Below are positions 7,785 to 38,579 of a DNA stretch of 38,664 nucleotides, piece after piece. Every line of letters begins with the position of its first letter. The first letter of the stretch is position 1. The notes beneath the pieces were generated by a model that saw nothing but the letters and a program-made list of their open reading frames with translations, searched no databases and had not been told where the DNA came from. The DNA lies in contig JBAXSE010000013.1 in the NCBI GenBank assembly GCA_037130845.1, forward strand, positions 1 to 38,664, given 5' to 3'. A program made the translations under genes and the position numbers. This DNA is from Candidatus Falkowbacteria bacterium (GTDB lineage Bacteria > Patescibacteriota > Patescibacteriia > Patescibacteriales > Patescibacteriaceae).

Positions 7785-7870
7785 CTGCGCCTATATTTTT
7801 GTTTTCCGGCATGTTATAATATTTGCACAAGAGGCGTCGGTTAAGCGCTTGTGTTATTGTAAAGATTTAT

Positions 7871-21263: not shown

Positions 21264-23021
21264 ATGATCACATTTAAAGAACTCGGTCTTAACGACCATA
21301 TCCAGCAAAGCCTGGAAGAATTGGGCTATATCAACCCAACGCCTATCCAAGAACAGGCGATCCCTTTTGTCTTGGAGAACGAACAAGATTTGATCGGGCT
21401 GGCGCAAACCGGCACCGGCAAGACGGCGGCCTTCGGCTTGCCGATTTTAAACAAATTGGAAAAGAATAAGGACGTGCAAGCCATCATCCTTTGTCCGACC
21501 CGCGAACTGTGCTTGCAGATCAGCAAGGAAATGACCGGCTTTGCCAAACATTCGACCAGCGTCAAAATCGCTACTATCTATGGCGGCGCGCGCGCCGATT
21601 TGCAAGTACAGCAGATTAGGGCTGGCGCCAATATCGTTGTCGGTACTCCCGGACGCGTGCATGATATGATCCGCCGCAAGGTGCTCAAGATGCACACGAT
21701 CCGTTTCGTGGTGTTGGACGAGGCTGACGAGATGCTTGATATGGGCTTCAAGGACGACCTGGATGCTATCTTGGCCGATACGCCGGAGACCAAGCAAACC
21801 TTGCTGTTCTCGGCCACCATGTCTTCGGTGATCCACAATATCGCCAAGAAGTTCATGCACGACCCGAAGGAGATCAGCGTCGGCAAGAAGAATATCGGCG
21901 CCGACAAAGTGGTCCATCAATATTATCTGGTCAAGCAAGGCCAGAAGTATGAAGCCTTGCGCCGCATCGTCGATTCTGAACCGGATATCTATGGTATCTT
22001 GTTCTGCCGCACTCGCAACGAAACCCAGGAGATCGCCGATAAGCTGAAGGAAGATCATTATTCGACCGAGGCCCTGCATGGCGAAATTTCCCAGAGCATG
22101 CGCACTCAGATTATGGAACGATTCCGCCAGCGCAAAATCCAATTGTTGGTGGCGACCGACGTGGCCGCCCGCGGCATCGATGTCAACGACCTGACCCATG
22201 TCATTAATTACAATCTGCCTGATGTCAACGAATTGTATGTCCATCGCAGCGGCCGTACCGGACGCGCTCAGAAAAGCGGCGTCTCCCTTTCTATCCTGAC
22301 CAATCGCGAGCTGCACAAAGTGCGCGAGTTGGAATACAAGACCGGCAAGACCTTTGAACAGAAGCAAGTGCCGACCGGCCAAGAAATCTGCCAGAAGCAA
22401 TTGATCGCCTTGGTCGAGAAAATGAAAGAGATTAAGGTGGATAAGAAGGAAATCGCGCCCTTTATGCCGGCTATTGAAGAGATGCTGGGCGATTTTTCCC
22501 GCGAGGAATTGCTGACTCGTTTTGTCTCGGCTGAATTCAATCATTTTTTATCATTATATAAAGACAAATCAGACTTGGCGTCCGTGCCGATGGGCCGTGA
22601 GGCTGTCGGCGGCCGTACTAACGACCGAGGCGAGCGTCGTGAACGCGGCGAGCGCCAGCCGGAGGAGAACTTTGTCAACGTGCATATCAATATCGGCCGT
22701 CGTGATAATCTGGAGGTCAAAACTTTGTTGGGCTTTATCAATTCCCAGCCGGAATTGAAGGGCGCCGAGATTGGCAAGGTCAAGATTTCCGAAGCCTTTA
22801 CCGTTTTCGGTATTGACAAGAATCGCGCTGGAGTAGTGGCTGACAGCTTCAAGACTGCTCGCTATAACGGACGCGCCTTGGAGGCTAGAGTCGTTGGCGG
22901 CGGGGGAGGAATGGAAAGACCGAGCCGCGGCGGTTATGTCGAAAAGAGTTTTGCTGACAAAAGGCGCGATACCAAATCTTCTTATAAAGCAAGCTCAACT
23001 ACCAAAAAGGGCCGTCGCTAA
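21264..23021 (+). CDS. deaD: DEAD-box ATP-dependent RNA helicase with a DbpA-type C-terminal RNA-binding domain and a basic RG-rich tail
   Basis: Q motif GY..PTPIQ, motif I AQTGTGKT, Ia PTRELC, II VLDEADEM, III SAT, V ATDVAARGID, VI HRSGRTGRA. C-terminal VNVHINIGRRDNLEVKTLLGFI... Confidence 0.92.
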   Translation: MITFKELGLNDHIQQSLEELGYINPTPIQEQAIPFVLENEQDLIGLAQTGTGKTAAFGLPILNKLEKNKDVQAIILCPTRELCLQISKEMTGFAKHSTSVKIATIYGGARADLQVQQIRAGANIVVGTPGRVHDMIRRKVLKMHTIRFVVLDEADEMLDMGFKDDLDAILADTPETKQTLLFSATMSSVIHNIAKKFMHDPKEISVGKKNIGADKVVHQYYLVKQGQKYEALRRIVDSEPDIYGILFCRTRNETQEIADKLKEDHYSTEALHGEISQSMRTQIMERFRQRKIQLLVATDVAARGIDVNDLTHVINYNLPDVNELYVHRSGRTGRAQKSGVSLSILTNRELHKVRELEYKTGKTFEQKQVPTGQEICQKQLIALVEKMKEIKVDKKEIAPFMPAIEEMLGDFSREELLTRFVSAEFNHFLSLYKDKSDLASVPMGREAVGGRTNDRGERRERGERQPEENFVNVHINIGRRDNLEVKTLLGFINSQPELKGAEIGKVKISEAFTVFGIDKNRAGVVADSFKTARYNGRALEARVVGGGGGMERPSRGGYVEKSFADKRRDTKSSYKASSTTKKGRR

Positions 23022-23143: not shown

Positions 23144-23821
23144 ATGGTAAGCAAGAATAATGTTTTTATGTTGGCTCCCGCTGAGCAACTGGCATCTTTG
23201 AGGGTGGATTTGGGCGAATTGCCTGATTTTAACCCGGACTTTATCGTCAAGCCTCTGCCGGACAAGGCAGCAAATAATTTTGTCGTGCCTCAGTGGAGCA
23301 TATTAGCGCCGACCTATCTGGAAGCTTTGGACAAGGTGCATCAGGCTTTGGCAGCTCATTTGGAGTTTACTAATGGCCTAAACCTGTCTCATGGCGAGCG
23401 CCAGGACCTCAAGTTCCTGCGTCCCCAATTTCGTACGGTTAAAGGATGGGAAAAAATGGTTCAGGCGCAGCAGTGCGGTGTAGTAATTGTGCCGGCGCAG
23501 TTTACCGGGCATTATCAGGATCTTGGCTTCCGTAATTTGTATACGGAAAAGATGAACAGGGAAGATGAGTTTGGCCTTGATCCGTATACCGTCGCCATTG
23601 TTTTGCTGTCGCATCAATATTTGTATTATGACGGTGCTGAACTTAATTTGGATATCCGTTGCGCCGGAGCGCATTATCCGCCCCGTAATCCGCCGGATGC
23701 TGACAGTAGTTCTATTTTATATTTTCTCAAGTCGCAGGAGGGTAAGCAAGAATTGTTTCTCTCTAGCAATGCCCATACTTTTAGCGATGCTGAAGGTTGG
23801 GCGACCGGCTATATTCTCTAG
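23144..23821 (+). CDS. Hypothetical protein (225 aa)
   Basis: ATG lies 6 nt after AAGGAG. Clean ORF followed by a terminator. No motif recognised. Confidence 0.65.
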   Translation: MVSKNNVFMLAPAEQLASLRVDLGELPDFNPDFIVKPLPDKAANNFVVPQWSILAPTYLEALDKVHQALAAHLEFTNGLNLSHGERQDLKFLRPQFRTVKGWEKMVQAQQCGVVIVPAQFTGHYQDLGFRNLYTEKMNREDEFGLDPYTVAIVLLSHQYLYYDGAELNLDIRCAGAHYPPRNPPDADSSSILYFLKSQEGKQELFLSSNAHTFSDAEGWATGYIL

Positions 23822-23862: not shown

Positions 23863-23896
23863 TTCCCTTTTTTCCTAATATTAGGCAAAAAATTAT

Positions 23897-23936
23897 ACAC
23901 CACACTTCAGTAAACTAGTTTACTGAAGTGTGGTGT
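23897..23936. repeat. Perfect 40-nt palindrome (19 + 2 + 19), either a second strong hairpin terminator or a protein-binding site
   Basis: acaccacacttcagtaaac-ta-gtttactgaagtgtggtgt, followed by gttttt. It lies 34 nt upstream of the -35 of the next promoter. Confidence 0.85.
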
Positions 23937-23969
23937 GTTTTTGTAAATACGGCAGGGTTATTAATTTTC

Positions 23970-23998
23970 TTGACATTTTTGGCCTTTTCTGGTATTTT
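23970..23998 (+). promoter_or_regulatory. Sigma70-type promoter of the RNAP-like gene
   Basis: TTGACA (23970-75), 17-nt spacer, TATTTT (23993-98). Confidence 0.5.
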
Positions 23999-24069
23999 GT
24001 ATTTACTCCAATTTTTGGTCGGGAGGATAAAACATAGGATCATTTAGTACCTTTACAAAGGAATAAGCA

Positions 24070-26706
24070 ATGAATGTTGCACAATTAAACACAGAAAAGC
24101 GTCTTGCTACGGCTATTATGCCTTGGAAAGACATCAGCATCGGTTCGGCCGCTATTGTTTCTAGCACTATCGCTAATAGCGGTATTTTTACTTCTACCCA
24201 AACCTTTAAGATTCAAGTTCCGCTTAGTGTTAACGAAAGCGTAACCAGGGATTATGACGGTTATCGCTTGCCAATGGACAAGCTGGACGAAGACGGAGTA
24301 ATCCGAGTCGGCGAGAGCGTCGCCTTGGGTGATGTGCTGGTTGCCATGATTGAATATGATCCACGAGAGTATCAGCCGGAAGAAAAATTGCTCAAAGCAA
24401 TTTTTGGCGACGGTGCTACTAACGTGACCGATCGTTCGGTTACCATGTCTTTCCCTGATCCTGCTATAGTCTATAGCGTCGAAAAAAAACTCGAAGGCAA
24501 AAAAAAGCTGGTGACTGTTTATCTGGCCTTTAAACGTAAACTACGTTTGGGTGATATTCTGGTCGATAGCAAAGGTAACCAAGCAGTTGTCTCGGCTGTT
24601 GTTGCTGATAATGAAATGCCTTATCTGAAAAGCTCGCAAACCAGAGCTCAAATAGTGGTTACGCCGCTCACTGATTGCGGCGAAACGATGGTAGATCATT
24701 TGGATAAACAAAGGCTGGTTGTGGTATATGATACCGAAGATCCCAAGTTTATCCTGATAGCGCCGCCGCTTGATAGGCCAAGCAAAAATAAGAAGTGGTT
24801 ATGCAAAGATGAAGAAGCGCGTTTTGGGGCTATCGCTTGGAAAAAATTAGAACTATTGTCCGGTCAAAAGAATATCGGTTATGGCGTTCAAAGTAGATTG
24901 CGCAACGATGCCCAATTGGTGGATGGCATCAAGATCCGCCAAGAATTTATCACAAGCCTGTTGCATTACAATCTGCCGGCTGTAGCCAGAGAATTTTTGA
25001 CCGTCAAGTCTGACGATGCCAAAGGCTACGGCGATACTGTACAAGCTATTATTAATGGATGGTCTTTGCCCGCAGCGGCTGCTCCGGCTTCGCTAAAGCG
25101 CTATGAAGCGACGATCAAGGCAATGGCCTTGACTATCGGAGTCGATAACGGCAGTAGGCAAGTCGGCTTACTTGATGGCTATAATTATCCCAACCAGGAT
25201 TTGCCAGGTATTGGCGTTTCTTTGTGGGTAACTCCGCAATCAGAGATTTTGGCTCAGTCCCACGGTGAATTGACCGGTGTTGATTATATGGATGATGCTA
25301 TCAAGCAGGCTCAAGGGAAAAAGAAAACAGACAAGATAGAAGTCGGTTTGTTCAGCCAACGCATTTTCGGCCCTCTACGGGATTATGAATGCGCTTGCGG
25401 TAAATACAAGCGAGTCCGCTATAGCGGCATCGTCTGCGATCGTTGCGGTGTCTTGGTAGCGCAAAGCTCTGTGCGCAAAGAACGTTTCGGCCATATCAAC
25501 CTGGCTTTGCCTTGCGTGCATCCTTTGTTCGAAAAAGCAGTTGCCGAGTTATATAAGTCGATCGATTACACGAACACTCCGCAATATTTTGAAGAGCTGA
25601 TCGAAAAAAACTTTGATCTAGAAAAAGCCGATTATCTTTTTGAATGTTCCGAGATAATGAAAAAGTTATCGTTGCCCGAACAGCAGATTCTTAATGTCAT
25701 CCCGGTCATGCCGGCCGGTTGGCGTTCCGATTGGATGTCTTATACTAGCAGTTGGACAATGGATTTAAATTATCTATATAGCAGATTAATGACTCGTAAC
25801 AATCGATTGACTCGATTAATCGACATCAAAGCTCCTTGGATGATTATCTCCAATGAATATCGAATGCTACAAGAGGCTTTGTCTGAATTATTTAATTGCA
25901 CTCATTTGGGGAGTGAGACTCCGCCTGTCGGATTGATCCATAGCCTGCAAGCAGCCGGTCGCAATCTTTATGACAAAAAGGTTAGTTATTCCGGACGTGC
26001 GCTGGTTATCCCAGATGACCGCCTGGCAATCGACGAATGCGTTTTGCCTAGAACTCTGGCAGTCAGATTGTTTGAGCCTTTTGTGCTTCAGCGCTTGATG
26101 GCATCGCCGCCGGAAACTCCTTGCGACCCGATTTGGGACGATTCTTATCCGGATCTGCCTCCTATCTTGGCAGATGTAGTAGTAGATATTGCCGCTGGCA
26201 ATAAGACTACAGTCGATCTAAAGAAGATTGATGAAGATGAAGCTAGAGCTTATCCGGGCTATACCTACAAGACGGCTAGTGGAATGGTTAAAAATAACCA
26301 CCCCGAAGCATTGGAAAAGCTGGAAGCGATTGTTGGCGATAGGGTTGTCCTATTGAGCTCTGTCAGTCAGATAGAATTTGCCGGTTTTTGTCCACGTTTA
26401 AGTAACGAAGAAGTCATCAGACTTCATCCGCAGGCTATTAAGCTTCTTGGTATTTCTCTGGGTAAGGCTGGCAAGGCGTTAGTCTATCTACCCTTGTCTG
26501 ATGATGCTCAAGCGGAAGTCAAAGGTGTTATGTGCGGCCAAGAATGGTCGTATGTTCCTCAGACTCCGAGCGTTGGATATAGCTCTGTTCTTAATAGTAA
26601 TCTCAAGCATCTTGTTTCTAATCCTTGGTTGGATCAACCGGAGCCGGAAACCTGCAAATGGTTGCTATCCTTAAATGATCGATTTTTGCTCAATTATAGC
26701 AAATAG
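24070..26706 (+). CDS. RNA polymerase beta (C-terminal third) / beta-prime (N-terminal third) fusion-like protein lacking catalytic motifs (pseudo-RNAP)
   Basis: 878-aa ORF, AAGGAA SD. Beta-like blocks: PEEKLLKAIFGDGATNVTDRSV, VYLAFKRKLRLGDILVDSKGNQAVVS..EMPY, FLTVKSDD. Beta-prime-like blocks: GLFSQRIFGPLRDYECACGKYKRVRYSGIVCDRCGV, VIPVMPAGWR, LYSRLMTRNNRLTRLIDIKAP..ISNEYRMLQEAL, VSYSGRALVI, LPRTLAVRLFEPF. There is no NADFDGD; the aligned segment is LGISLGKAGKALVYLPL. Confidence 0.85.
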   Translation: MNVAQLNTEKRLATAIMPWKDISIGSAAIVSSTIANSGIFTSTQTFKIQVPLSVNESVTRDYDGYRLPMDKLDEDGVIRVGESVALGDVLVAMIEYDPREYQPEEKLLKAIFGDGATNVTDRSVTMSFPDPAIVYSVEKKLEGKKKLVTVYLAFKRKLRLGDILVDSKGNQAVVSAVVADNEMPYLKSSQTRAQIVVTPLTDCGETMVDHLDKQRLVVVYDTEDPKFILIAPPLDRPSKNKKWLCKDEEARFGAIAWKKLELLSGQKNIGYGVQSRLRNDAQLVDGIKIRQEFITSLLHYNLPAVAREFLTVKSDDAKGYGDTVQAIINGWSLPAAAAPASLKRYEATIKAMALTIGVDNGSRQVGLLDGYNYPNQDLPGIGVSLWVTPQSEILAQSHGELTGVDYMDDAIKQAQGKKKTDKIEVGLFSQRIFGPLRDYECACGKYKRVRYSGIVCDRCGVLVAQSSVRKERFGHINLALPCVHPLFEKAVAELYKSIDYTNTPQYFEELIEKNFDLEKADYLFECSEIMKKLSLPEQQILNVIPVMPAGWRSDWMSYTSSWTMDLNYLYSRLMTRNNRLTRLIDIKAPWMIISNEYRMLQEALSELFNCTHLGSETPPVGLIHSLQAAGRNLYDKKVSYSGRALVIPDDRLAIDECVLPRTLAVRLFEPFVLQRLMASPPETPCDPIWDDSYPDLPPILADVVVDIAAGNKTTVDLKKIDEDEARAYPGYTYKTASGMVKNNHPEALEKLEAIVGDRVVLLSSVSQIEFAGFCPRLSNEEVIRLHPQAIKLLGISLGKAGKALVYLPLSDDAQAEVKGVMCGQEWSYVPQTPSVGYSSVLNSNLKHLVSNPWLDQPEPETCKWLLSLNDRFLLNYSK

Positions 26707-26830: not shown

Positions 26831-27154
26831 GTGATACATTTGTTTAATTTGCATAATAAATCGACTTCTTTTGCTTGGGAGTGGTATATAGAGCGTTTGA
26901 TGCTGGTTTTGCCAATCTGGATAGTGATGGTGCTGGTTGGCATCTATGGAACCGTTTGCTATTTTCAAGTCGATATAAACCATCTGGAGAAGTATAGGGG
27001 AGACGTAAGTAATGTCCATTTGATGCTGATATTAAGCCTGGTAATCCCGACCCTAATCTTTGCTATCGACCTGCCAATCTCATATTATCTGGCGAAACGC
27101 AAAGAAAAAAGCCGTGAAAACTTAATCGAAGTTGCGCCCAAAAGCCAAAATTGA
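26831..27154 (+). CDS. Small membrane protein (107 aa, 2-3 TM), hypothetical
   Basis: GTG26831 lies 7 nt after GGAGGA. Hydrophobic helices LMLVLPIWIVMVLVGIYGTV and LMLILSLVIPTLIFAI. Confidence 0.55.
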   Translation: MIHLFNLHNKSTSFAWEWYIERLMLVLPIWIVMVLVGIYGTVCYFQVDINHLEKYRGDVSNVHLMLILSLVIPTLIFAIDLPISYYLAKRKEKSRENLIEVAPKSQN

Positions 27155-27270: not shown

Positions 27271-28722
27271 ATGGCCGAAGAAGTAATTTTGCGTTTCGAC
27301 AATGTCGATTTTGAATATCAAGAGAAAAAGCCTATCCTGGATAGCGCTTGTTTCAGCTTGCGTCGAGGCGCCAAAGTTACGCTGATGGGCCAGAATGGGG
27401 CCGGTAAAAGCACGATTTTTGGCCTAATCCGCGGGGAACTCAAGCCCAAGAATGGTAATGTGGCCATAGGCAAGGAGACTAGCGTTGGCACCGCCAGACA
27501 GATGATTGCCCGCGAGGACCTGCCTTTGAGCGTGGAAGAATACTTCGCCCGTGCCTTTAATCCCGTGCCCTACAACTTGCCGGCTCGTATCGCCAAAGTG
27601 ATGGATGCGGTAAACCTGCAGGTGCCGCTAGACCGCAAAGTAGGTGAGTTGAGCGGGGGACAGCAGGCTCGTTTGCTCTTGGCCTATGCCTTGATTGAGG
27701 ATCCTGACATCCTGCTTTTGGACGAGCCGACCAACAACTTGGACAAGGCTGGCATTGATCATCTGGTCGCCTTTTTAATCATGTATGACAAGACAGTGGT
27801 GGTTATCTCTCATGATGCAGACTTTTTAAACTGTTTTACCGAAGGCGTCATTTATCTGGATATCTTTACCAAGCAGACCGAAATCTATGTCGGCGACTAT
27901 TATACGGTGACCGAAGAGATCGCCAAGCGGGTAGAGCGTGAACAGAAAAAGAACGCCCAGCTGGAAAAGACCATCCTGGACCGCAAAGAAAAGGTCAACT
28001 TTTTCGCCAATAAGGGCGGTAAGATGCGCAAGCTGGCCAAGAAGATGCGCGATGAGATTGAGGAGTCCGAGGAAAATATGGTGGATGTTCGCCGCGAGGA
28101 CAAGACTATTCGCCGTTTTACCATTCCGGCTCAGGATATCACTGGCGCTATTGTGGATATTAATTCATTCAAAATAATCGTCAATCACGAACCGGTGCTC
28201 AAGCACAAGGAAGTGGTGTTACGTATGGGGCAAAAGATGTTGATCTCCGGCCCCAATGGTATCGGCAAGAGCACATTTTTGCGCTCCTTGGTGTCGGGCA
28301 AGAGTGAAGGCGCCAGCATATTGCCGGAGGTTAAGATCGGTTATTATAGCCAGGACTTTGCCAATCTGGATTTCGACCAGACCGTATTTGCTTCTCTCGA
28401 GAGTCTGATTGGCGATGGCTGCGACGTGCAGGATATGCGTTCTATTGCTGCCGGCTTCTTGATTACCGGCGACCTGATGGGTCATCTGGTAGGCGATCTA
28501 TCTGAAGGGCAGAAAGGTCTTTTGTCCTTTGCCCGCCTAGTGATGATGCGTCCCGGCCTGCTGATTATGGATGAACCGACCAATCATATTAATTTCCGCC
28601 ATATCCCGGTAATTGCCGAGGCTTTGGACAAATACGAAGGCGCGCTGATTATGATCAGTCATATGCCTGATTTTGTAAAAGAAATTAAATTTAATGAGTT
28701 TATTGAATTGGATAGATTATAA
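27271..28722 (+). CDS. ABC-F family ATPase (two ABC domains, no transmembrane domain)
   Basis: Walker A GQNGAGKST and GPNGIGKST; signatures LSGGQQ and LSEGQK; Walker B ILLLDEPTNNLD and LLIMDEPTNHIN; charged inter-domain linker (EREQKKNAQLEK...). Confidence 0.88.
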   Translation: MAEEVILRFDNVDFEYQEKKPILDSACFSLRRGAKVTLMGQNGAGKSTIFGLIRGELKPKNGNVAIGKETSVGTARQMIAREDLPLSVEEYFARAFNPVPYNLPARIAKVMDAVNLQVPLDRKVGELSGGQQARLLLAYALIEDPDILLLDEPTNNLDKAGIDHLVAFLIMYDKTVVVISHDADFLNCFTEGVIYLDIFTKQTEIYVGDYYTVTEEIAKRVEREQKKNAQLEKTILDRKEKVNFFANKGGKMRKLAKKMRDEIEESEENMVDVRREDKTIRRFTIPAQDITGAIVDINSFKIIVNHEPVLKHKEVVLRMGQKMLISGPNGIGKSTFLRSLVSGKSEGASILPEVKIGYYSQDFANLDFDQTVFASLESLIGDGCDVQDMRSIAAGFLITGDLMGHLVGDLSEGQKGLLSFARLVMMRPGLLIMDEPTNHINFRHIPVIAEALDKYEGALIMISHMPDFVKEIKFNEFIELDRL

Positions 28723-28873: not shown

Positions 28874-29524
28874 GTGAAAATGCATCAAGCTGATATCAAT
28901 TTGTTTTACAGCTGTTTTTACTCACTTGGTCTTGATAGTCGTGACAAAGGCTTTGCCGCTTTAGCCGAGTATGTAGTGAATACTTATGCTGAACCGGGCA
29001 GGCATTATCACGATTTCGGGCATATTGGTAAGATGTTGAATGTTTTGGATCAATACTTACCCGAAGCAGATAGTTTGGATGCTTTACGCATTGCGATATT
29101 GTTTCATGATCTAAGGCAAGGCCATAAACACGAGCGTGAGAGCGCTTCAATGGCTGGAATTTTGCTTAAGCCTTTCAACCATGTCTTAGGTCGAATGCTA
29201 ATCAATCGAGTTGCCGAGCTGATACTCGACACTGTCCACCCAGGCAACCCCACGACCAATGACGGCCAATTGATCCACGATATCGATCTGTATGGCTTCG
29301 GCCAGAGCTTTGAAGAGTGTCGAGATGCCAGCCGGGGAATACGATTGGAGTATGCCGATATGAATGATGAAGATTTCTATCAGGCGCAAAAAGGTTTCTT
29401 TGAACATCTATTGTCGCAAGACAGTATCTACAAGCATCCGAGCTTTGCCATCTTTGAAGACAAAGCCAGGAATAATCTCAAAAAGCTAATAAAGATCCTG
29501 CCGATCTTGAGTATAATGCCCTAA
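28874..29524 (+). CDS. HD-superfamily metal-dependent phosphohydrolase-like protein (COG4339-like)
   Basis: GRHYHDFGHIGKML...AILFHDL gives the H...HD metal-ligand pattern. GTG28874 lies 5 nt after GGAG (ATG28880 is the alternative). Confidence 0.6.
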   Translation: MKMHQADINLFYSCFYSLGLDSRDKGFAALAEYVVNTYAEPGRHYHDFGHIGKMLNVLDQYLPEADSLDALRIAILFHDLRQGHKHERESASMAGILLKPFNHVLGRMLINRVAELILDTVHPGNPTTNDGQLIHDIDLYGFGQSFEECRDASRGIRLEYADMNDEDFYQAQKGFFEHLLSQDSIYKHPSFAIFEDKARNNLKKLIKILPILSIMP

Positions 29525-33014: not shown

Positions 33015-33129
33015 AGTAAAAATGCTATTGACATCGCTTAGGTAAAGTGTTTAGATAGGCTCATTATTACGATAATAAAAAGCTAATAATAGCATAAAAT
33101 TGTTCATTAATATATTTGCGGAGGATAAA

Positions 33130-33807
33130 ATGGAAAGGTCTAATAGAGTAATTATCCCGGGTTTAGGGACTATTCTCAGGCTTAAGATCGCTAGCATGCA
33201 TGTCGATGCGGAAAACGGCTTTGCGCCCCTGTGTCCGTTGGAACTGCCGGTACCGGACGGCCAGAATATTGTACACGAGCTGATAGCTCAAAATAACTTC
33301 GCCCGCTATCTGGTAGGCAGCAAAGAAGGACACTCGGACCATCCCCAATGGGCGGCCACCGAGAGCGAGCCGGCCTTTACGCCGATGACGGGCTATCCCA
33401 ATATGAATCGGCGTTGGAATGTGCATTGCGCTATCGGTACCTATGGCGGACAATTGCTGGACGGACTGCCGCCGATTAGCGGCTATGATTTTATGGTCTG
33501 GAAGGGCATTGAAGATGATATGCATCCCTATGGGGCTTGCTATCACGACCTGGCCAAGAAGCTGTCTACCGGGCTGATAGAATGGCTGACCTGCCAGAGA
33601 ATCTCGACAGTGATAGTGGGTGGTCTGGCGACTGATTACTGCGTGCTGGAAACAGTCTTGGAATTATTAGAGGCTGGTTTTGAAGTAGTAGTCAATCTGG
33701 GAGCTTGCCGCGGTGTCGCAACAGACACGACAGACACAGCTATCAAAAAGATGATTAAGCACGGCGCGATTATTATCCAGTCCAGCCAAGAACTAACGCT
33801 TGTCTAA
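33130..33807 (+). CDS. pncA: Nicotinamidase (isochorismatase-fold, PncA)
   Basis: ATG33130 lies 4 nt after GGAGGA. Catalytic Asp region VDAENGF, Lys in MVWKG, Cys in VGGLATDYCV. His-rich metal-site segment EGHSDHPQW. Confidence 0.8.
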   Translation: MERSNRVIIPGLGTILRLKIASMHVDAENGFAPLCPLELPVPDGQNIVHELIAQNNFARYLVGSKEGHSDHPQWAATESEPAFTPMTGYPNMNRRWNVHCAIGTYGGQLLDGLPPISGYDFMVWKGIEDDMHPYGACYHDLAKKLSTGLIEWLTCQRISTVIVGGLATDYCVLETVLELLEAGFEVVVNLGACRGVATDTTDTAIKKMIKHGAIIIQSSQELTLV

Positions 33808-33947
33808 GGGCACGATCCATCGCAAAGTCAAACAGGGGAAAGCCAGCCTTTCCCCCTACTCAAGTGGCGCTGAAAGTTTCGGCGCCAGCTGTCTAGGCAG
33901 TTCTTTAAAATTGAATAATCAAATTGTTATATTTATCAGGAGTAGAC

Positions 33948-35222
33948 ATGTATTTACCATCAAGTTTGTTCAGCTACAAGCAGGACAAAGGCATCATCCA
34001 AACGCTCATGGATGTGGACTTCTATAAGTTCACTATGGGGCAATTGGCCTTTAAGTATTATCGCAATGTGCAAGTGACCTTCAAGTTCACCAATCGCAAT
34101 AAGAATGTTAAGCTGGCCAAGATTATCGATATCGCCCGTTTGCGTGAAGAGCTGGACCATTGCCGTACCCTAAGCTTCAAGAATTCGGAGATCCATTATT
34201 TGCGCGGTACTAATGAGTATCAGCATAGGATGTTCGAGGAAGATTACTTGCAGTTCTTGGCGACCTTGCGTTTGCCAGATTATGAGCTGGAATTTGTGGG
34301 AGATGAAATTTGGCTGACCTTTACGGGCTTTTGGCCGGAAGTGACATTGTGGGAAACCCTCGCCTTGTCGATTATCAACGAGCTCTATGTTCGTGCCATG
34401 TTAGGCAAGGATACTAGCGCTTGGGAACGCAACTACGCTGTCGGAGTCACCAGGTTGTATGAGAAGATTGAAAGCTTGCGCGAATATCCGGAATTAGTCT
34501 TCACTGATTTCTGTACCCGTCGCCGTTTTAACGGCCCGTGGCAGGGATACTGCATCGAGACGACCGTGCGAGAATTACCCGGGCAGTTCCTGGGCACTTC
34601 CAACGTGATGTTCTCTCAGCAATTGGCAGACCACAATTTCGTCCCTATGGGCACATCCGCTCATGAACGTGATATGGTGTTGGCTGCTTTGCAGTTCAAT
34701 AGCGATGTGGGCATCCTTAATAGCCTCTGGCAGAGCGCGGATGAATGGTACAATCAATATGGCGAAGGCCTGTCTATCTTTTTGCCCGATACCTTCGGCA
34801 CCGATGCCTTTTTCGCCCAATTCGGGTCGGCTCGAGCCAAAAAATGGAAGGGCTCGCGGCAAGATTCCGCTGATCCATATGCCTACGGCAGAAAGTTGAT
34901 CAAGTATTATGAAGGCTATGAGATTGATCCACGAAATAAAATGTGCATCTTTAGCGATGGCTTGACGCACGAATTGATGATTTGTTTGCATATATATTTC
35001 CATCGGCAGCTCAAAGATGGTTATGGCTACGGCACGCATTTCGGCAACGACTTGCTGGTTCCGCCTTTGCCCATTGTGGTCAAAGTCGACAGCGTCAACG
35101 GCAATCCGGCTGTCAAGCTTTCTGACAATCTGGCCAAAGGCATGGGATTGCAGACTGAACAAGAGCGTTACAAAAGGATATTTGGCTACACGCGTGATTT
35201 CAGACAAGAATGTGTTGTATAA
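33948..35222 (+). CDS. pncB: Nicotinate phosphoribosyltransferase
   Basis: ATG33948 lies 5 nt after CAGGAG. N-terminal DVDFYKFTMGQ, FTDFCTRRR, MGTSAHERDM (phospho-His loop), SDGL. Length 424 aa. Confidence 0.85.
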   Translation: MYLPSSLFSYKQDKGIIQTLMDVDFYKFTMGQLAFKYYRNVQVTFKFTNRNKNVKLAKIIDIARLREELDHCRTLSFKNSEIHYLRGTNEYQHRMFEEDYLQFLATLRLPDYELEFVGDEIWLTFTGFWPEVTLWETLALSIINELYVRAMLGKDTSAWERNYAVGVTRLYEKIESLREYPELVFTDFCTRRRFNGPWQGYCIETTVRELPGQFLGTSNVMFSQQLADHNFVPMGTSAHERDMVLAALQFNSDVGILNSLWQSADEWYNQYGEGLSIFLPDTFGTDAFFAQFGSARAKKWKGSRQDSADPYAYGRKLIKYYEGYEIDPRNKMCIFSDGLTHELMICLHIYFHRQLKDGYGYGTHFGNDLLVPPLPIVVKVDSVNGNPAVKLSDNLAKGMGLQTEQERYKRIFGYTRDFRQECVV

Positions 35223-35240
35223 TTTAACTCGGAGTTTAGA

Positions 35241-36149
35241 ATGATAGTAGAAAGAAGGAAGTTCTATGGTCTGAACGGAGTGATCCAGGAAGACCGTGAG
35301 CGGTTTAAGCATATTCCTTTGTTGGAATTCTCTAAGGAAGTTATGAATAGTTTTTCTCTTGCCAGTACAAAGATACGCGACAAGGATGATCTAGAGAAAG
35401 CGGTAGCTGATATTTATTGCAAATGGACGGCAGGCTATGGTTATTATGGCGATGTCATCAATGTTAGCTGTTTTATTGCTGACGACCATTGTTATCTGCA
35501 AGTAAATTATATCGCTCGTTTGGCTTTTCCCAAGCCGAATATGGCCTCCGACCTGGTGCCTATCGTGATTGATAATCGCGGCTATGCCTTTCTGATTGCC
35601 ATTACCCGCAAATACAATCCCGGTAAAGGCGGACTTGCCTTGATAGGCGGCTTCCGAAGCGTGATCAAGAATCGCATGGAAACGTCAGTTGAAGCAGCAA
35701 TGCGAGAGGCTAGTGAAGAAGCAGTCGGTCTTGATCTAGAGTATATAGTTAATTGTCACGATGGGATATATTCTAATATAACTCCCCAAAACAGTCAGGC
35801 GATACTAGTGCTGGGCCTGCGTCATGAGATTGTCGGCGGCATCTGGCAGCAGGTGGTGAATCTGGAGTGGTTGGGTACTTATCGTACTGCTCCGGATCGA
35901 GATGAATCATACATCACTCGGCAACGAGTCGATATAACTGATGCTTATGTCCTGCCGATTCGAGTTGATCGGCTGTTGACCAAAGCAGAAATCGCCACTT
36001 GGTTTAGACCGGGCGATGATGCTGAAACGGTCGAAATTATCCGGATTGACGATGGCTACGAGCCTGCTTTTGTCTTTAACCATCATAGTGTCATCTTCAA
36101 GGAAGCTTGGAAAAAGATCGCGAATGAAGTGGCCGTTCTCTATATGTAA
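35241..36149 (+). CDS. Nudix-fold protein with a ~100-aa N-terminal extension and a near-canonical Nudix box; function unclear
   Basis: GGAG SD. LALIGGFRSVIKNRMETSVEAAMREASEEAVGL has E-x7-REASEE intact but the G-to-E spacing is lengthened. C-terminal AFVFNHHSVIFKEAW resembles the LAFDH..I motif of ADP-ribose-type Nudix/NrtR proteins. Confidence 0.6.
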   Translation: MIVERRKFYGLNGVIQEDRERFKHIPLLEFSKEVMNSFSLASTKIRDKDDLEKAVADIYCKWTAGYGYYGDVINVSCFIADDHCYLQVNYIARLAFPKPNMASDLVPIVIDNRGYAFLIAITRKYNPGKGGLALIGGFRSVIKNRMETSVEAAMREASEEAVGLDLEYIVNCHDGIYSNITPQNSQAILVLGLRHEIVGGIWQQVVNLEWLGTYRTAPDRDESYITRQRVDITDAYVLPIRVDRLLTKAEIATWFRPGDDAETVEIIRIDDGYEPAFVFNHHSVIFKEAWKKIANEVAVLYM

Positions 36150-36264
36150 GCAAATTGATTATTCACAGTCGACGGCTAACACGACCGTCGACTATTTATC
36201 TAAGCGATCAAACTCTTGATCCTTTGGATAAGTAAAGTACTTTGAAAATTTATAAGGAACAATC

Positions 36265-37002
36265 ATGAAATATTTAACCGTTTTTTCGGACAGTCTGGCT
36301 GCACAAGATCTAGCCCGCCAAGTCAAGGAAAAGCATTTGCAGGTAACCGATGATCCGCAACAAGCGGATGCGATTATCGTTGGTGGTGGAGATGGCACTA
36401 TGTTGCACGCAATTCATCAGTATTGGCAATTAAAGGTACCTTTTTTAGGAATTAATTGTGGTTCGGTCGGTTTTTTATTAAACCCTGTCGAAACGGAGAG
36501 GGATCTTTTGTTGTTATTGCATCATTTCCAAGAGGTTAAATTGAACTTAATGGAAGTGCATATAGATGCTGAAAGCGATAGCTTTACCTTGCATGCCTTC
36601 AATGACGTTTATCTAAACGTCAAACCGGGCTCCATTTGTTATGGCACGATTCAAGGCGAGCATTATCCCAGACAAAAATTTCGTGGAGACGGCCTAATAG
36701 TAGCTACCGGCCAAGGTTCAACGGCCTACAATCGTAATGCCGGCGGGTCGATATTACCTTTGCAAAATGACCTGTTGGCTATTACCGGTATTTGTACTTA
36801 TGATACGCTACGCGATGTGGTGTCTCAACAGGATCTGATTATTACTATCACTCGTGGTGAGGTGACGGCCAATGCTGACAATCAGTCGGTAGCCGGTGTC
36901 AGGTCAATCGTTATCCGTCCGGGCTTTAGCACTGTCGCCTTGGGTTTCCGCCCCGACTATAATTTCGAAAGCAAAAGATATTCATTCTATAACCAATTCT
37001 AG
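36265..37002 (+). CDS. nadK: NAD+ kinase
   Basis: DAIIVGGGDGTML (GGDG motif), NDVYL, GDGLIVATGQGSTAYNRNAGGSI. Confidence 0.88.
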   Translation: MKYLTVFSDSLAAQDLARQVKEKHLQVTDDPQQADAIIVGGGDGTMLHAIHQYWQLKVPFLGINCGSVGFLLNPVETERDLLLLLHHFQEVKLNLMEVHIDAESDSFTLHAFNDVYLNVKPGSICYGTIQGEHYPRQKFRGDGLIVATGQGSTAYNRNAGGSILPLQNDLLAITGICTYDTLRDVVSQQDLIITITRGEVTANADNQSVAGVRSIVIRPGFSTVALGFRPDYNFESKRYSFYNQF

Positions 37003-37012
37003 GAGTGCAGTA

Positions 37013-37954
37013 ATGTATAAATTAACACAGCAACAGTTGGCTGACGTAGCAAAATACGCCAGCTCTAACCTCTACGCCTATTGCGTGAAAAATAATATCC
37101 ACCATCTGGTGGTTGGTTCTTCCGGCGGTTTGGACAGCGCGGTTACGCTTAAACTAGCTCAATTAGCCTGCAACTTAGCCGAAAAAGATGGCTATGAATT
37201 AAAGAGCATCGGCATGGTCTTGCCTTGTTTCTCCAGCCGTAGGTCGATTGATTTGGGTCGGCTAGCTATTAGGTCTGCCGGTGCTGAAGTAATCGAAATC
37301 AATCTGGATAAAGCTTTTAGTGCTTTGATGAATAATGCAGTCGAGGAAGGCATCGGGTGGCAGTTGGATGACATCGAACCTGATGTAACGGCTGCCGACT
37401 GGCGGCAAAGGCGAATCATCGCTCAGGGCAATATCAAAGCTCGTCTGCGTATGATCCATGTCTATCAGGTAGCCGGCTTGCTCAAGGGCATAGTGCTCTC
37501 GACCGATAATCTGAGCGAACTATGGATGGGCTTTTGGACCCTGCATGGGGACGTAGGCGACTACGGCATGATTCAGAATCTGCTCAAAGGCTTGGAGCTC
37601 TATGACTTGGCACGCTACTTGGGCGTACCGAAAGAGATTATCGCGGCTAAGCCGGACGACGGACTAGGCATAGGCAAAGGGGATGAAGATCAGTTGCATG
37701 CGCCTTATGACAAGATTGATGAAGTGATGATTACGTTCTATCAACAGAACGAACCGCATATCATAAACAGACGACACTCGGCAGTCCTGCCGGCTGTCGA
37801 GGGAGTGAAGCCGGAAGTAGTCTCAGAATTAGTGGCTCGCTACCAAGCGACCAATTATAAGCGTTGGGGGACGGTCAATCTGACCCGCAGCGACTTGCAT
37901 CTGCCGCCAATCAACAATATCAATCTGCGAGGCGACAGTGAAAACCAAGCTTGA
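37013..37954 (+). CDS. nadE: NH3-dependent NAD+ synthetase
   Basis: ATG37013 lies 7 nt after AGGAG and 10 nt after the nadK stop. PP-loop VVGSSGGLDSAV; GNIKARLRM; STDNLSELWMGFWTLHGD; KPDDGL. Confidence 0.85.
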   Translation: MYKLTQQQLADVAKYASSNLYAYCVKNNIHHLVVGSSGGLDSAVTLKLAQLACNLAEKDGYELKSIGMVLPCFSSRRSIDLGRLAIRSAGAEVIEINLDKAFSALMNNAVEEGIGWQLDDIEPDVTAADWRQRRIIAQGNIKARLRMIHVYQVAGLLKGIVLSTDNLSELWMGFWTLHGDVGDYGMIQNLLKGLELYDLARYLGVPKEIIAAKPDDGLGIGKGDEDQLHAPYDKIDEVMITFYQQNEPHIINRRHSAVLPAVEGVKPEVVSELVARYQATNYKRWGTVNLTRSDLHLPPINNINLRGDSENQA

Positions 37955-38579
37955 TTTCATCCAAGGCTTCAAGGCCTTAACCGAACTGGCATTGGCCGCT
38001 GCCAAGCCGGTAGTAGTATTAATTGCCGGAGCCAGTGGTTCCGGCAAGAGTCATCTGGCTAAGCTGTTGTCCGCCAAGCTGCTGCAATGCGGCATTTTGA
38101 CTACCGTTATTGGACAGGATGATTATTTCCGCGATTGTTTCGATCCCGATTTGCCGCTCGATAGCCAAGGACGGGGAATCTTCGATCTGCCGGCTTCCTA
38201 TCTCGATTTGGAACTGGCTAGCGACATCCGCATGTTGCTTAGCGGCTTTACGGTCCAGGGTCCGCTTTATGACAAGAAAGTCAATCTGCGGTCGCTAACC
38301 AAGAAAACGCTGGAAGCTGCGCCTGTGGTTATTGTGGAAGGTCTCTATGCCATTTTGGCGTTGGCTGATAATGATGATATGCCTATCATCAAGATTTATG
38401 TGGAGGCCGACTCGGATATTTGTTTGCGGTCGCGAATTAGGCGTGATACCGTGGCTTTTGGCATCAGCGCCGAAAAGGTAGAGAAATTCTACAACGAACG
38501 GGTATTGCCTTATGCCAAGGAGGCCTTGACCGACCAGGCCAAGCTGGCTGACTTGATTATCGTTAATGATCACCTATAA
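37938..38579 (+). CDS. Uridine kinase/PRK-family P-loop nucleoside kinase (possible nicotinamide riboside kinase)
   Basis: GTG37938 overlaps the nadE stop by 17 nt. P-loop IAGASGSGKSHLAK, GQDDYF, PLYD, IVEGLYA, YVEADSDICLRSRIRRD. Confidence 0.7.
   Translation: MKTKLDFIQGFKALTELALAAAKPVVVLIAGASGSGKSHLAKLLSAKLLQCGILTTVIGQDDYFRDCFDPDLPLDSQGRGIFDLPASYLDLELASDIRMLLSGFTVQGPLYDKKVNLRSLTKKTLEAAPVVIVEGLYAILALADNDDMPIIKIYVEADSDICLRSRIRRDTVAFGISAEKVEKFYNERVLPYAKEALTDQAKLADLIIVNDHL

What the first reader, a model, noticed from the sequence alone, without database searches (positions are those of the whole stretch)
25372..25899. The best-conserved parts of the pseudo-RNAP are partner- and RNA-docking surfaces (Zn-ribbon, clamp helices), suggesting a decoy or sequestration role
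Conservation within the 878-aa protein is uneven. All four Cys of the beta-prime zinc-binding element are kept (C441, C443, C456, C459; nt 25390-25446). The segment equivalent to the beta-prime clamp coiled-coil (aa ~565-610; nt 25762-25899) is among the most similar stretches to E. coli, while the catalytic loops are replaced.

In bacterial RNAP the clamp helices are the main docking site for sigma region 2 and for the NusG N-terminal domain. The Zn-binding element, lid and beta flap line the RNA exit channel.

One inference is that the protein mimics the clamp and exit-channel face of RNAP. It could then titrate sigma, NusG/NusA-type factors or nascent-RNA-like ligands, or act as a scaffold, without polymerising RNA. 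This functional idea is speculative.
Basis: inference. Interest (0 to 1): 0.7.

Follow-up and report, generated by a model that had tools for sequence, protein, structure and literature searches.

The report
Dead RNA polymerase paralogue keeping docking surfaces
This gene encodes a shortened, fused copy of the two large RNA polymerase subunits that has lost every catalytic residue but keeps the zinc element, clamp helices and flap tip where sigma and Nus factors normally dock, and it belongs to a sizeable, unannotated bacterial family that may regulate transcription by mimicking the polymerase.

Summary
ORF 24070-26706 (+) encodes an 878-aa fusion of the last third of beta and the first third of beta'. 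All four zinc cysteines lie at the stated coordinates. The zinc element (58% identity) and clamp helices (57%) are the stretches most like E. coli, against 31% overall and 0/9 in the catalytic loop.

An exhaustive profile search found at least 68 family representatives. All lack the ten catalytic or NTP-site residues that are invariant in 68 real polymerases. Retention of polymerase-invariant residues is 83% in the zinc element and 47% in the clamp helices, against 9-23% in the barrels, switch 2 and rudder.

- The beta flap-tip helix, the sigma region 4 / NusA site, is also kept.
- About one family member in six carries a fused alpha C-terminal domain.
- A relative's genome also holds normal rpoB and rpoC.

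No binding was tested. There is no conserved operon, and I found no paper on the family. My best reading, an inference, is a non-catalytic clamp-plus-flap platform that captures a sigma factor. Nus/Rho docking and nucleic-acid binding are the main rivals.

The parts
24070..26706 (+). Gene for the 878-aa catalytically dead beta-beta' mini-fusion (pseudo-RNAP)
23895..23938 (+). Terminator-like hairpin (20-bp stem plus T run) that separates the gene from the upstream 225-aa ORF
   Evidence: sequence read
23970..23998 (+). Promoter-like site TTGACA-17-TATTTT with an extended TG, about 70 nt upstream of the start codon. This is a consensus match only.
24058..24062 (+). Shine-Dalgarno-like AAGGA, 7 nt before the ATG
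   Evidence: sequence read
24070..25152 (+). Beta-derived half (aa 1-361). It matches E. coli beta ~790-937 (barrel N-part and flap), 1045-1117 (barrel) and 1273-1342 (C-terminal clamp piece). The SI2 insertion, lobes and fork are absent.
24142..24147 (+). Positions of the lost Mg-B ligands (beta E813/D814 become G25/S26)
24376..24417 (+). Beta flap-tip helix PEEKLLKAIFGDGA (aa 103-116). It is 11/14 identical to E. coli beta 897-910. The hydrophobic face L107, L108, I111, F112 is kept.
   Evidence: modelled as helix 103-112
24550..24585 (+). Degenerate beta barrel motif GDILVDSKGNQA in place of GDKMAGRHGNKG. K1065 becomes I and K1073 becomes Q.
25204..26529 (+). Beta'-derived half (aa 379-820). 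It matches E. coli beta' ~14-114 and 235-485 and stops before the bridge helix.
25339..25524 (+). Beta' zinc-binding element and its flanks (aa 424-485), with Cys441/443/456/459 at nt 25390-25446
   Evidence: 58% identical to E. coli. The best-conserved block of the family: JSD 0.56-0.59 and 29/35 canonical invariants kept.
25726..25761 (+). Lid remnant (aa 553-564), degenerate in this protein (1/13 identical) and modelled with low confidence
25762..25899 (+). Beta' clamp helices (aa 565-610). R576, E596 and A603 correspond to E. coli R275, E295 and A302.
   Evidence: modelled as two helices, 566-585 and 590-608, pLDDT above 90
25900..25983 (+). Shortened rudder and switch-2 remnant (aa 611-638); the basic DNA/RNA-contacting residues are lost
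26110..26259 (+). Lineage-specific, probably disordered insertion (aa 681-730), absent from about 95% of relatives
   Evidence: occupancy 0.02-0.05; pLDDT below 50; 22% identity to the close orthologue
26449..26478 (+). Former Mg-A catalytic loop (aa 794-803, GISLGKAGKA) in place of NADFDGDQM; no aspartate triad
26530..26703 (+). Family-specific C-terminal tail (aa 821-878) that replaces everything after beta' ~485. This protein has no alpha-CTD.

Best explanation
The gene encodes a single-chain, catalytically dead paralogue of the RNA polymerase core. The last third of beta (flap, barrel, C-terminal clamp piece) is fused to the first third of beta' (zinc element, clamp helices, barrel).

Shown:
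- It cannot have the canonical active site.
- It belongs to one divergent family of at least 68 clusters, found in Patescibacteria (CPR) and Polyangia MAGs and in many unnamed metagenome contigs.
- In that family selection has kept the zinc element, the clamp helices and, in most members, the flap-tip helix. The catalytic and hybrid-handling elements have decayed.
- A relative is encoded beside intact rpoB and rpoC.

Inferred:
- The protein is a free-standing 'clamp plus flap' platform that binds a factor which normally docks on this face of the polymerase.
- The most likely factor is a sigma70-family protein, with region 2 on helices 566-608 and region 4 on helix 103-112.
- It would then either withdraw sigma from the real core (anti-sigma action by core mimicry) or form a sigma-loaded complex that recognises promoters but cannot transcribe.
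- The fused alpha-CTDs of some relatives favour the promoter-bound version in those lineages.
For: Architecture and homology:
- Pfam, NCBIfam and PDB sequence matches.
- A confident AF2 model that matches beta', beta, isolated beta-flap domains and an engineered stand-alone archaeal clamp bound to Spt4/5.

Loss of catalysis:
- Ten residues invariant in 68 canonical pairs are replaced here and are not conserved in 63 relatives.
- There is no bridge helix or trigger loop.

Family:
- The exhaustive profile search gave dozens of representatives 650-1050 aa long with the same architecture.
- They form a single clade in an NJ tree.

Constraint:
- Family conservation peaks at aa 421-480 and 541-600.
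- Canonical invariants kept: zinc element 83%, clamp helices 47%, against 9-23% elsewhere, with p = 3e-13 and 4e-6.
- Surface polar clamp-helix residues keep the canonical identity: N266 51/63, R275 50/63, R278 50/63, E295 56/63, Q300 49/63, N309 50/63.
- R275Q, E295K and A302D impair holoenzyme formation in E. coli. The clamp helices bind sigma region 2.2 and the flap tip binds sigma region 4 (PMC8321222, read).
- Flap-tip residues kept: E899 48/63, F906 49/63, L901 39/63, L902 38/63, I905 37/63.

Other:
- Alpha-CTD is fused in at least 11 of 63 representatives. In 13 fused domains R265 is kept in 8, G296 in 10 and E261 in 10.
- One relative lies directly after rpoB-rpoC-dnaG-rpoD.
Against:
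- Gene neighbourhoods differ in 12 contexts.
- The rpoD adjacency occurs once and is absent from a 62%-identical orthologue.
- The same surfaces bind NusG/Spt5, NusA and other factors, so sequence conservation cannot name the ligand.
- Part of the retention, especially in the zinc element, may be structural.
- Three full-length relatives have deleted the zinc knuckle, and one has degraded clamp helices.
- In this protein the lid, the N-terminal (zipper) region and the rudder are degenerate.
- Against its 67% orthologue the barrels are as conserved as the clamp helices.
- The window protein has no alpha-CTD.
- No sigma gene is present in the window.
Confidence: 0.4

Rival explanations
1. The partner is an elongation or termination factor rather than sigma. 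Candidates are the NusG N-terminal domain on the clamp helices, the NusA N-terminal domain on the flap tip (with alpha-CTD where fused), and possibly Rho or the ribosome, which I recall as docking on this face of the polymerase. The protein would titrate or scaffold these factors off the real polymerase.
Against: From my own knowledge, NusG also uses the beta gate loop and lobe. That region of beta is absent here. The helicase/ABC-F synteny is shared only by two close orthologues, and the gene is separated from the upstream ORF by a strong terminator-like hairpin. No nusG or nusA linkage appears in any context.
Confidence: 0.2
2. The ligand is nucleic acid. The remnant exit channel (zinc element, flap, dock) and, in some relatives, the alpha-CTD bind RNA or DNA directly, making the protein an RNA- or DNA-binding regulator or chaperone without any protein partner.
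For: Basic residues of the zinc element stay basic: K74 is K/R in 57/63, R98 60/63, R99 46/63, R101 62/63. The fused alpha-CTDs keep the DNA-binding R265/G296/K298 pattern in most cases.
Against: The lid, rudder and switch 2, which handle RNA and DNA in the real enzyme, are degraded both in the family and in this protein. This reading does not explain why surface polar residues of the clamp helices keep their canonical identity.
Confidence: 0.12
3. The conserved blocks are mainly a folding core, and the real function lies elsewhere. One example is a platform for UvrD/AddAB-type helicase-nucleases or other DNA-repair proteins. Another is a function not related to the canonical partners at all.
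For: Many retained invariants outside the three blocks are Gly, Pro or Leu. Between close orthologues constraint is broad. Five of 12 contexts have a repair or replication gene next door. AddA-like or AddB+AddA-like genes are co-directional downstream in two relatives.
Against: The repair link is post hoc, is co-directional only in one subclade, and is absent from the window. Retention of exposed polar clamp-helix residues at 75-90% in a family with about 28% pairwise identity is hard to explain by folding alone.
Confidence: 0.13
4. It is a defence-type decoy that soaks up phage proteins which target the host polymerase flap or clamp.
For: The model's flap matches flap domains crystallised with the phage proteins P23-45 gp39 and T4 gp33, so this surface is a known phage target.
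Against: There is no match to PADLOC defence models. No defence genes or mobile-element context were seen. The only phage-database matches are host rpoB-rpoC sequences. The contexts of the CPR-type relatives are housekeeping.
Confidence: 0.05
5. It is still a polymerase with a non-canonical active site, or else a decaying pseudogene.
For: Both barrels are predicted to fold.
Against: All five metal ligands and the NTP-site residues are lost, and no alternative acidic cluster is conserved. There is no bridge helix or trigger loop. Against the pseudogene idea: the ORF is intact, a 67%-identical orthologue has the same length, and the family has invariant positions.
Confidence: 0.03

Closest known systems
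Bacterial RNA polymerase beta and beta' subunits, including the natural beta-beta' fusions (NCBIfam NF007172 / NF011417, DNA-directed RNA polymerase subunit beta/beta')
   Same: Clear homology. The order is the same (beta C-terminus joined to beta' N-terminus). Both double-psi barrels, the flap, the zinc element and the clamp helices are present.
   Different: Only about one third of each subunit is present. All catalytic residues are lost, and there is no bridge helix, trigger loop, lobes or jaw. Scores lie far below the equivalog cut-offs (229.8 against 5372; 206.4 against 963.5). It exists in addition to normal rpoB/rpoC.
Stand-alone clamp or clamp-helix fragments used experimentally: beta' coiled-coil fragments that bind sigma70 and induce non-template-strand binding (Young et al. 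2001, cited in PMC8321222), and the engineered archaeal clamp bound to Spt4/5 (PDB 3qqc)
   Different: Those fragments are laboratory constructs. This is a natural, conserved gene that also carries the flap and both barrels.
Minimal or split two-barrel RNA polymerases of phages (P23-45 gp96, AR9 and phiKZ non-virion polymerases; YonO from my own knowledge)
   Different: Those enzymes are active polymerases; from my own knowledge they keep the aspartate triad, and I did not check their flap-tip or clamp-helix sequences here. This protein shows the opposite pattern and is not phage-borne.
Anti-sigma factors, Rsd and 6S RNA (sequestration of sigma or holoenzyme, in the case of 6S RNA by mimicry)
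   Same: The proposed outcome is the same: removal of sigma or holoenzyme from productive transcription through mimicry of a natural partner.
   Different: None of them is a polymerase homologue. Here the mimic would be the core enzyme itself. Binding is not shown.
Inactive paralogues of transcription factors that regulate polymerase (Gfh1, archaeal TFS4; from my own knowledge)
   Same: The same principle: a pseudo-enzyme paralogue that keeps its docking surface and acts as a regulator.
   Different: Those are small secondary-channel factors, not copies of the catalytic subunits.

Membership tests
Active multisubunit RNA polymerase catalytic subunits (beta/beta') | Beta' Mg-A loop NADFDGD (D460, D462, D464) | tested here: not met
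   It aligns with ISLGKAG. Positions 460 and 462 are not acidic in the family, and 464 is E or D in 33/63.
Active multisubunit RNA polymerase catalytic subunits (beta/beta') | Beta E813/D814 and the NTP/3'-end contacts K1065, K1073, R1106, H1237; beta' R425 | tested here: not met
   All are 68/68 in canonical pairs. All are replaced in the window protein and are variable in the family.
Active multisubunit RNA polymerase catalytic subunits (beta/beta') | Bridge helix, trigger loop, funnel and beta lobes (Pfam Rpb1_3/4/5 and Rpb2_1/2/3) | tested here: not met
   Only Rpb2_6, Rpb1_1 and weak Rpb1_2 match. The alignment ends at beta' ~485.
Active multisubunit RNA polymerase catalytic subunits (beta/beta') | Homologous two-barrel fold with flap and clamp | tested here: met
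Active multisubunit RNA polymerase catalytic subunits (beta/beta') | Score above the NCBIfam equivalog cut-offs for rpoB, rpoC or rpoBC | tested here: not met
   229.8 against 5372; 206.4 against 963.5; 119 against 896.
Dead beta-beta' mini-fusion family (defined here) | Single chain of about 700-1050 aa: beta C-terminal third, then beta' N-terminal third, ending 50-100 aa after the former catalytic loop (longer where alpha-CTD or another extension follows) | tested here: met
   The window protein scores 1019 bits against the 8-sequence family profile (A1), which includes the window protein itself. It covers the profile end to end and clusters inside the family clade.
Dead beta-beta' mini-fusion family (defined here) | Four-cysteine zinc element, canonical-type clamp helices and flap-tip helix retained | tested here: met
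   Across the family these are kept by about 65/68, 66/68 and 50/63 members respectively.
Sigma-sequestering regulators (anti-sigma factors in the functional sense) | Direct, specific binding of a sigma factor | not testable with these tools
There is only indirect support from retained contact residues (PMC8321222).
Sigma-sequestering regulators (anti-sigma factors in the functional sense) | Genetic linkage with a sigma gene | tested here: not met
   One of 12 contexts has rpoD upstream. It is not kept in a 62% orthologue. There is none in the window.
Anti-phage defence system components (PADLOC) | Match to a defence-system model or a defence-island context | tested here: not met
   No PADLOC match. 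The context is housekeeping.

The most novel reading that the evidence does not exclude
A new class of bacterial transcription regulator: a chromosomally encoded, catalytically dead mimic of the RNA polymerase core. Its clamp helices and flap tip would capture sigma (or NusG/NusA). In lineages where an alpha-CTD is fused, it would sit on promoters as a holoenzyme look-alike that cannot transcribe. It would set the free-sigma pool or occupy promoters in organisms such as the CPR bacteria.
Probability: 0.35. Interest if true: 0.9.

Novelty: new variant of a known kind. Interest (0 to 1): 0.75.

Why it matters
Regulation of bacterial transcription by partner mimicry is known for RNA (6S RNA) and for small proteins (anti-sigma factors). 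I know of no case where the mimic is a copy of the polymerase core itself.

The family has at least 68 clusters at 50% identity, the public records seen call its members 'hypothetical protein', and it occurs in CPR bacteria and in Polyangia MAGs. It discards catalysis and keeps exactly the surfaces where sigma, NusG and NusA dock. That would add a new layer of control over sigma competition or factor availability.

It would also be a natural experiment on which parts of the polymerase suffice for factor docking. Practically, it offers a compact, soluble clamp-plus-flap module for structural and binding studies. It also shows that annotation pipelines can mistake or miss polymerase paralogues.

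Tried and rejected
Searches and jobs that failed:
- Scan of one genome per species (genome contigs) with the family alignment. The patterns came from the zinc element, so all 80 loci were ordinary rpoB-rpoC junctions and no family member was recovered.
- Two further word-indexed protein searches with family alignments. They were swamped by canonical beta' and added only three members. The exhaustive profile search was what revealed the family.
- The AFDB50 structure library was not available.

Links that were tested and not found:
- Phage or mobile-element origin. The phage database gave only host rpoB-rpoC contamination. PHROG matches are to full-length beta and beta' families. The viral structure library gave only real polymerases.
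- Defence link. There is no PADLOC match.
- Conserved operon. Twelve contexts were examined and none is shared beyond close orthologues.
- Taxonomy from cluster names. These were mostly unnamed. Only Falkowbacteria, Pacebacteria/Paceibacterota and Polyangia were obtained.
- Literature. Six full-text searches for inactive, fused or paralogous polymerase cores found no description of the family.

Readings rejected:
- A residual polymerase is rejected because all ten invariant catalytic and NTP-site residues are lost.
- A pseudogene is rejected because the ORF is intact, a 67% orthologue has the same length, and family positions are conserved.

Self-correction: the '100% cysteine' figure in my 63-sequence set is partly circular, because that set was selected on the CxC...CxxC motif. 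Relaxing the filter shows three members with the knuckle deleted.
Full report
WHAT IS THERE

The finding lies inside ORF 24070..26706 (+), which encodes 878 aa. Pfam finds Rpb2 domain 6 at aa 10-199, Rpb1 domain 1 at aa 425-613 and a weak Rpb1 domain 2. NCBIfam matches only the real rpoB, rpoC and rpoBC models, and far below their cut-offs. The best solved relatives are beta' chains (E = 1.7e-52), in three stretches.

BLAST against E. coli gives this map:
- aa 2-124 = beta 790-918
- aa 144-211 = beta 1045-1117
- aa 294-360 = beta 1275-1341
- aa 426-485 = beta' 55-114
- aa 537-680 = beta' 235-386
- aa 733-821 = beta' 392-484

So the protein is the last third of beta fused to the first third of beta'. 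It stops about 75 residues after the place of the catalytic loop. There is no bridge helix, trigger loop, lobes or jaw.

The gene appears to be its own transcription unit. A 20-bp terminator-like hairpin (23895-23938) follows the upstream ORF. A TTGACA-17-TATTTT site (23970-23998) and an AAGGA sequence 7 nt before the ATG precede the gene. These are consensus matches only.

The rest of the window is ordinary chromosome: HisRS, histidine ammonia-lyase, malic enzyme, a DEAD-box helicase, an ABC-F protein, an SPFH protein and NAD salvage genes. An identical protein is deposited as a 'hypothetical protein' of a Candidatus Falkowbacteria MAG.

CHECK OF THE OBSERVATION

The four cysteines and the clamp-helix segment are at the stated coordinates. 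Over 655 aligned columns the protein is 31% identical to E. coli. By element the figures are:
- zinc element 58%
- clamp helices 57%
- flap-tip helix 79%
- catalytic loop 0/9, lid 1/13, rudder 2/20

The two best 30-residue windows are aa 576-605 and aa 432-461. The binomial p values are 1e-5, 3e-4 and 3e-4.

Ten residues are invariant in 68 canonical rpoB/rpoC pairs: beta E813, D814, K1065, K1073, R1106 and H1237, and beta' D460, D462, D464 and R425. All ten are replaced here.

THE FAMILY

Word-indexed searches found one close orthologue (P0002, 67% identity, syntenic) and a handful of distant proteins with the same architecture. A profile of eight of them was searched exhaustively against 1.84 billion representatives. 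It returned dozens of proteins 650-1050 aa long that cover the profile end to end.

I took 63 of them that have a mid-chain zinc motif. None has NADFDGD or GDKxxxRHGNKG. No protein of this architecture was excluded by that motif filter. Relaxing the zinc filter adds members, three of which have a clean deletion of about 28 residues that removes the zinc knuckle. One further member has degraded clamp helices.

In an NJ tree with 26 canonical sequences the 63 form one clade. They are very divergent: mean distance 0.73, against 0.24 among canonical sequences. Long-branch attraction could help that result. The shared truncation point and the shared C-terminal tail argue for one origin.

Named members come from Falkowbacteria, Pacebacteria/Paceibacterota and Polyangia. 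Wherever a function name is given it is 'hypothetical protein', or else the alpha-CTD alone is named.

One relative (P0008) is encoded on a 1-Mb contig directly after intact rpoB, rpoC, dnaG and rpoD. So the family is a paralogue, not the cell's polymerase.

Within the family the most conserved 20-residue bins are aa 421-480 (JSD 0.56-0.59) and aa 541-600 (0.46-0.53). Next come aa 301-320 (beta C-terminal LTVKSDD) and aa 161-180.

I then aligned the 63 family members and 68 canonical pairs to one family HMM. For each element I counted the positions that are at least 90% conserved in real polymerases and that keep the same residue in at least 70% of the family:

| Element | Canonical-invariant positions kept |
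|---|---|
| zinc element | 29/35 |
| clamp helices | 16/34 |
| dock | 7/18 |
| flap 911-937 | 3/7 |
| flap-tip helix | 3/11 (mean retention 0.50) |
| beta GDK...RHGNKG | 3/13 |
| rudder | 2/9 |
| switch 2 | 2/12 |
| beta' barrel 421-457 | 2/23 |
| catalytic loop | 1/9 |
| beta 1077-1110 | 0/16 |

Against all other invariant positions, the zinc element (p = 3e-13), the clamp helices (p = 4e-6) and the flap tip (p = 0.048) are enriched. This control matters. The catalytic loop, switch 2 and the hybrid-binding part of beta are at least as conserved as the zinc element in real enzymes, yet they are lost here.

Exposed polar residues of the clamp helices keep their canonical identity. The counts out of 63 are N266 51, Y269 60, R275 50, R278 50, E295 56, Q300 49 and N309 50. 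In E. coli, R275Q, E295K and A302D impair holoenzyme formation. The clamp helices bind sigma region 2.2 and the flap tip binds sigma region 4 (PMC8321222).

There is one nuance. Between the two Falkowbacteria orthologues the zinc element is again near the top (87%), but the clamp helices (76%) are only moderately above the 67% mean, and the barrels are similarly constrained. So the whole fold is under selection, not just the surfaces.

STRUCTURE

With the 63-sequence alignment, AlphaFold2 gives a confident model (pLDDT 85.5, pTM 0.85). It has a helix at 103-112 (flap tip) and two long helices at 566-585 and 590-608 (clamp helices). Residues 684-728 are disordered; they belong to an insertion specific to this lineage.

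EXTRA CLUES

At least 11 of 63 representatives end in an alpha-subunit C-terminal domain, all above the Pfam threshold, and one has two copies. These domains are close to the canonical one. In 13 fused domains they keep R265 in 8, G296 in 10, basic residues at 297/298 in most, E261 in 10 and E302 in all 13. From my own knowledge, R265, G296 and K298 form the DNA-binding determinant, and E261 lies on the surface that touches sigma region 4.

The members that carry alpha-CTD are scattered over the tree.

Gene neighbourhoods are otherwise unhelpful. Twelve contexts share nothing beyond close orthologues. The rpoD adjacency is unique and is not kept in a 62% orthologue.

One oddity remains. Five contexts have a DNA-repair or replication gene next door, and AddA-like or AddB+AddA-like genes are co-directional downstream in two related members. 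This is post hoc and is not seen in the window.

HOW IT MOST LIKELY WORKS

Shown:
- The protein is a folded, selected, non-catalytic copy of the clamp, flap and barrels.
- It exists beside a normal polymerase.
- Its best-kept parts are factor-docking elements.

Inferred:
- It is a free platform for a factor that normally binds this face of the polymerase. I favour a sigma70-family factor, with confidence about 0.4.
- The reasons are that both principal sigma sites (clamp helices and flap tip) are kept together, that the residues known to matter for sigma binding are kept, and that alpha-CTD fusions recreate the upstream promoter-binding face of holoenzyme.
- The result would be titration of sigma, or a promoter-bound complex that cannot transcribe.

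The main rivals are docking of NusG, NusA or Rho (0.2), direct RNA or DNA binding (0.12), and a mostly structural explanation with an unrelated or repair-linked function (0.13). A phage decoy (0.05) and a residual polymerase or pseudogene (0.03) are unlikely.

NOVELTY

No curated family names this protein. Six literature searches found nothing on inactive or truncated polymerase-core paralogues in bacteria. The library does not cover all journals, so an earlier description cannot be excluded.

By homology it is a variant of a very well-known protein. By likely function it would be new. I rate it a new variant of a known kind, with interest 0.75.

Noticed in passing
L004:1-16000 (JGI contig Ga0642625_00003): The distant family member P0008 is encoded directly after rpoB-rpoC-dnaG-rpoD and before an AddA-like UvrD/PD-(D/E)XK helicase-nuclease. 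The rpoD adjacency is not kept in the 62%-identical orthologue P0222 (L092), where a tRNA-like sequence lies upstream.
   Followed up: yes
family contexts: L004, the P0016 contig (no DNA held), L011, L092, L094: DNA-repair or replication genes sit next to the pseudo-polymerase gene in 5 of 12 contexts. They are AddA-like, AddB+AddA-like, UvdE, an HhH-GPD glycosylase, and RecR-YbaB-DnaX. Only two are co-directional. This is a post hoc observation.
   Followed up: partly
relatives P0009, P0016, P0043, P0233, P0235, P0245, P0247, P0255, P0280, P0292, P0328, P0370: These relatives have a C-terminal fusion of one alpha-subunit C-terminal domain (two in P0328), with the DNA-binding residue pattern mostly intact. 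P0245 also has a Sel1 repeat before the alpha-CTD.
   Followed up: yes
relatives P0289, P0324, P0348; P0370: Three full-length family members have precisely deleted the four-cysteine knuckle while keeping canonical clamp helices. P0370 keeps the zinc element and alpha-CTD but has degraded clamp helices.
   Followed up: partly
window 26110-26259: A 50-residue acidic, proline-rich insertion (aa 681-730) is found only in the two Falkowbacteria orthologues. It is predicted to be disordered and is only 22% identical between them.
   Followed up: partly
window 23144-23821 and 26831-27154: A 225-aa ORF upstream and a 107-aa probable membrane ORF downstream have no match in Pfam, NCBIfam, PADLOC or PHROGs. 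Both are syntenic in the orthologous locus L002/L003.
   Followed up: partly
window 21264-23021 and 27271-28722: The flanking genes are a DEAD-box RNA helicase with a DbpA RNA-binding domain (CshA/DbpA-like) and an ABC-F protein (ribosomal-protection/EttA-like). Both are linked to RNA or the ribosome. The synteny is shared only with the close orthologue.
   Followed up: partly
window 33100-38579: A run of NAD-related genes: isochorismatase/nicotinamidase-like, nicotinate phosphoribosyltransferase, a 302-aa ORF without Pfam match, NAD kinase, NAD synthase and a PRK/uridine-kinase-family kinase. The ORFs at 36265-37002 and 36896-37954 overlap by about 100 nt, so one start codon is probably called too early.
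   Followed up: no
window 3489-6386 (-): A 965-aa hybrid histidine kinase with several PAS domains, a GAF domain, HisKA/HATPase and a receiver domain. That seemed to me a large sensor for a genome labelled Candidatus Falkowbacteria (CPR).
   Followed up: no
window 7823-8953: A protein with an N-terminal prepilin-type methylation motif and a laminin-G/concanavalin-like domain, which makes it a candidate pseudopilin or adhesin.
   Followed up: no
window 28874-29524: A 216-aa ORF with no Pfam or NCBIfam match hits PHROG 19425 'phosphohydrolase' (E = 8e-27). It contains an HD-like HDxxH..HD motif.
   Followed up: no
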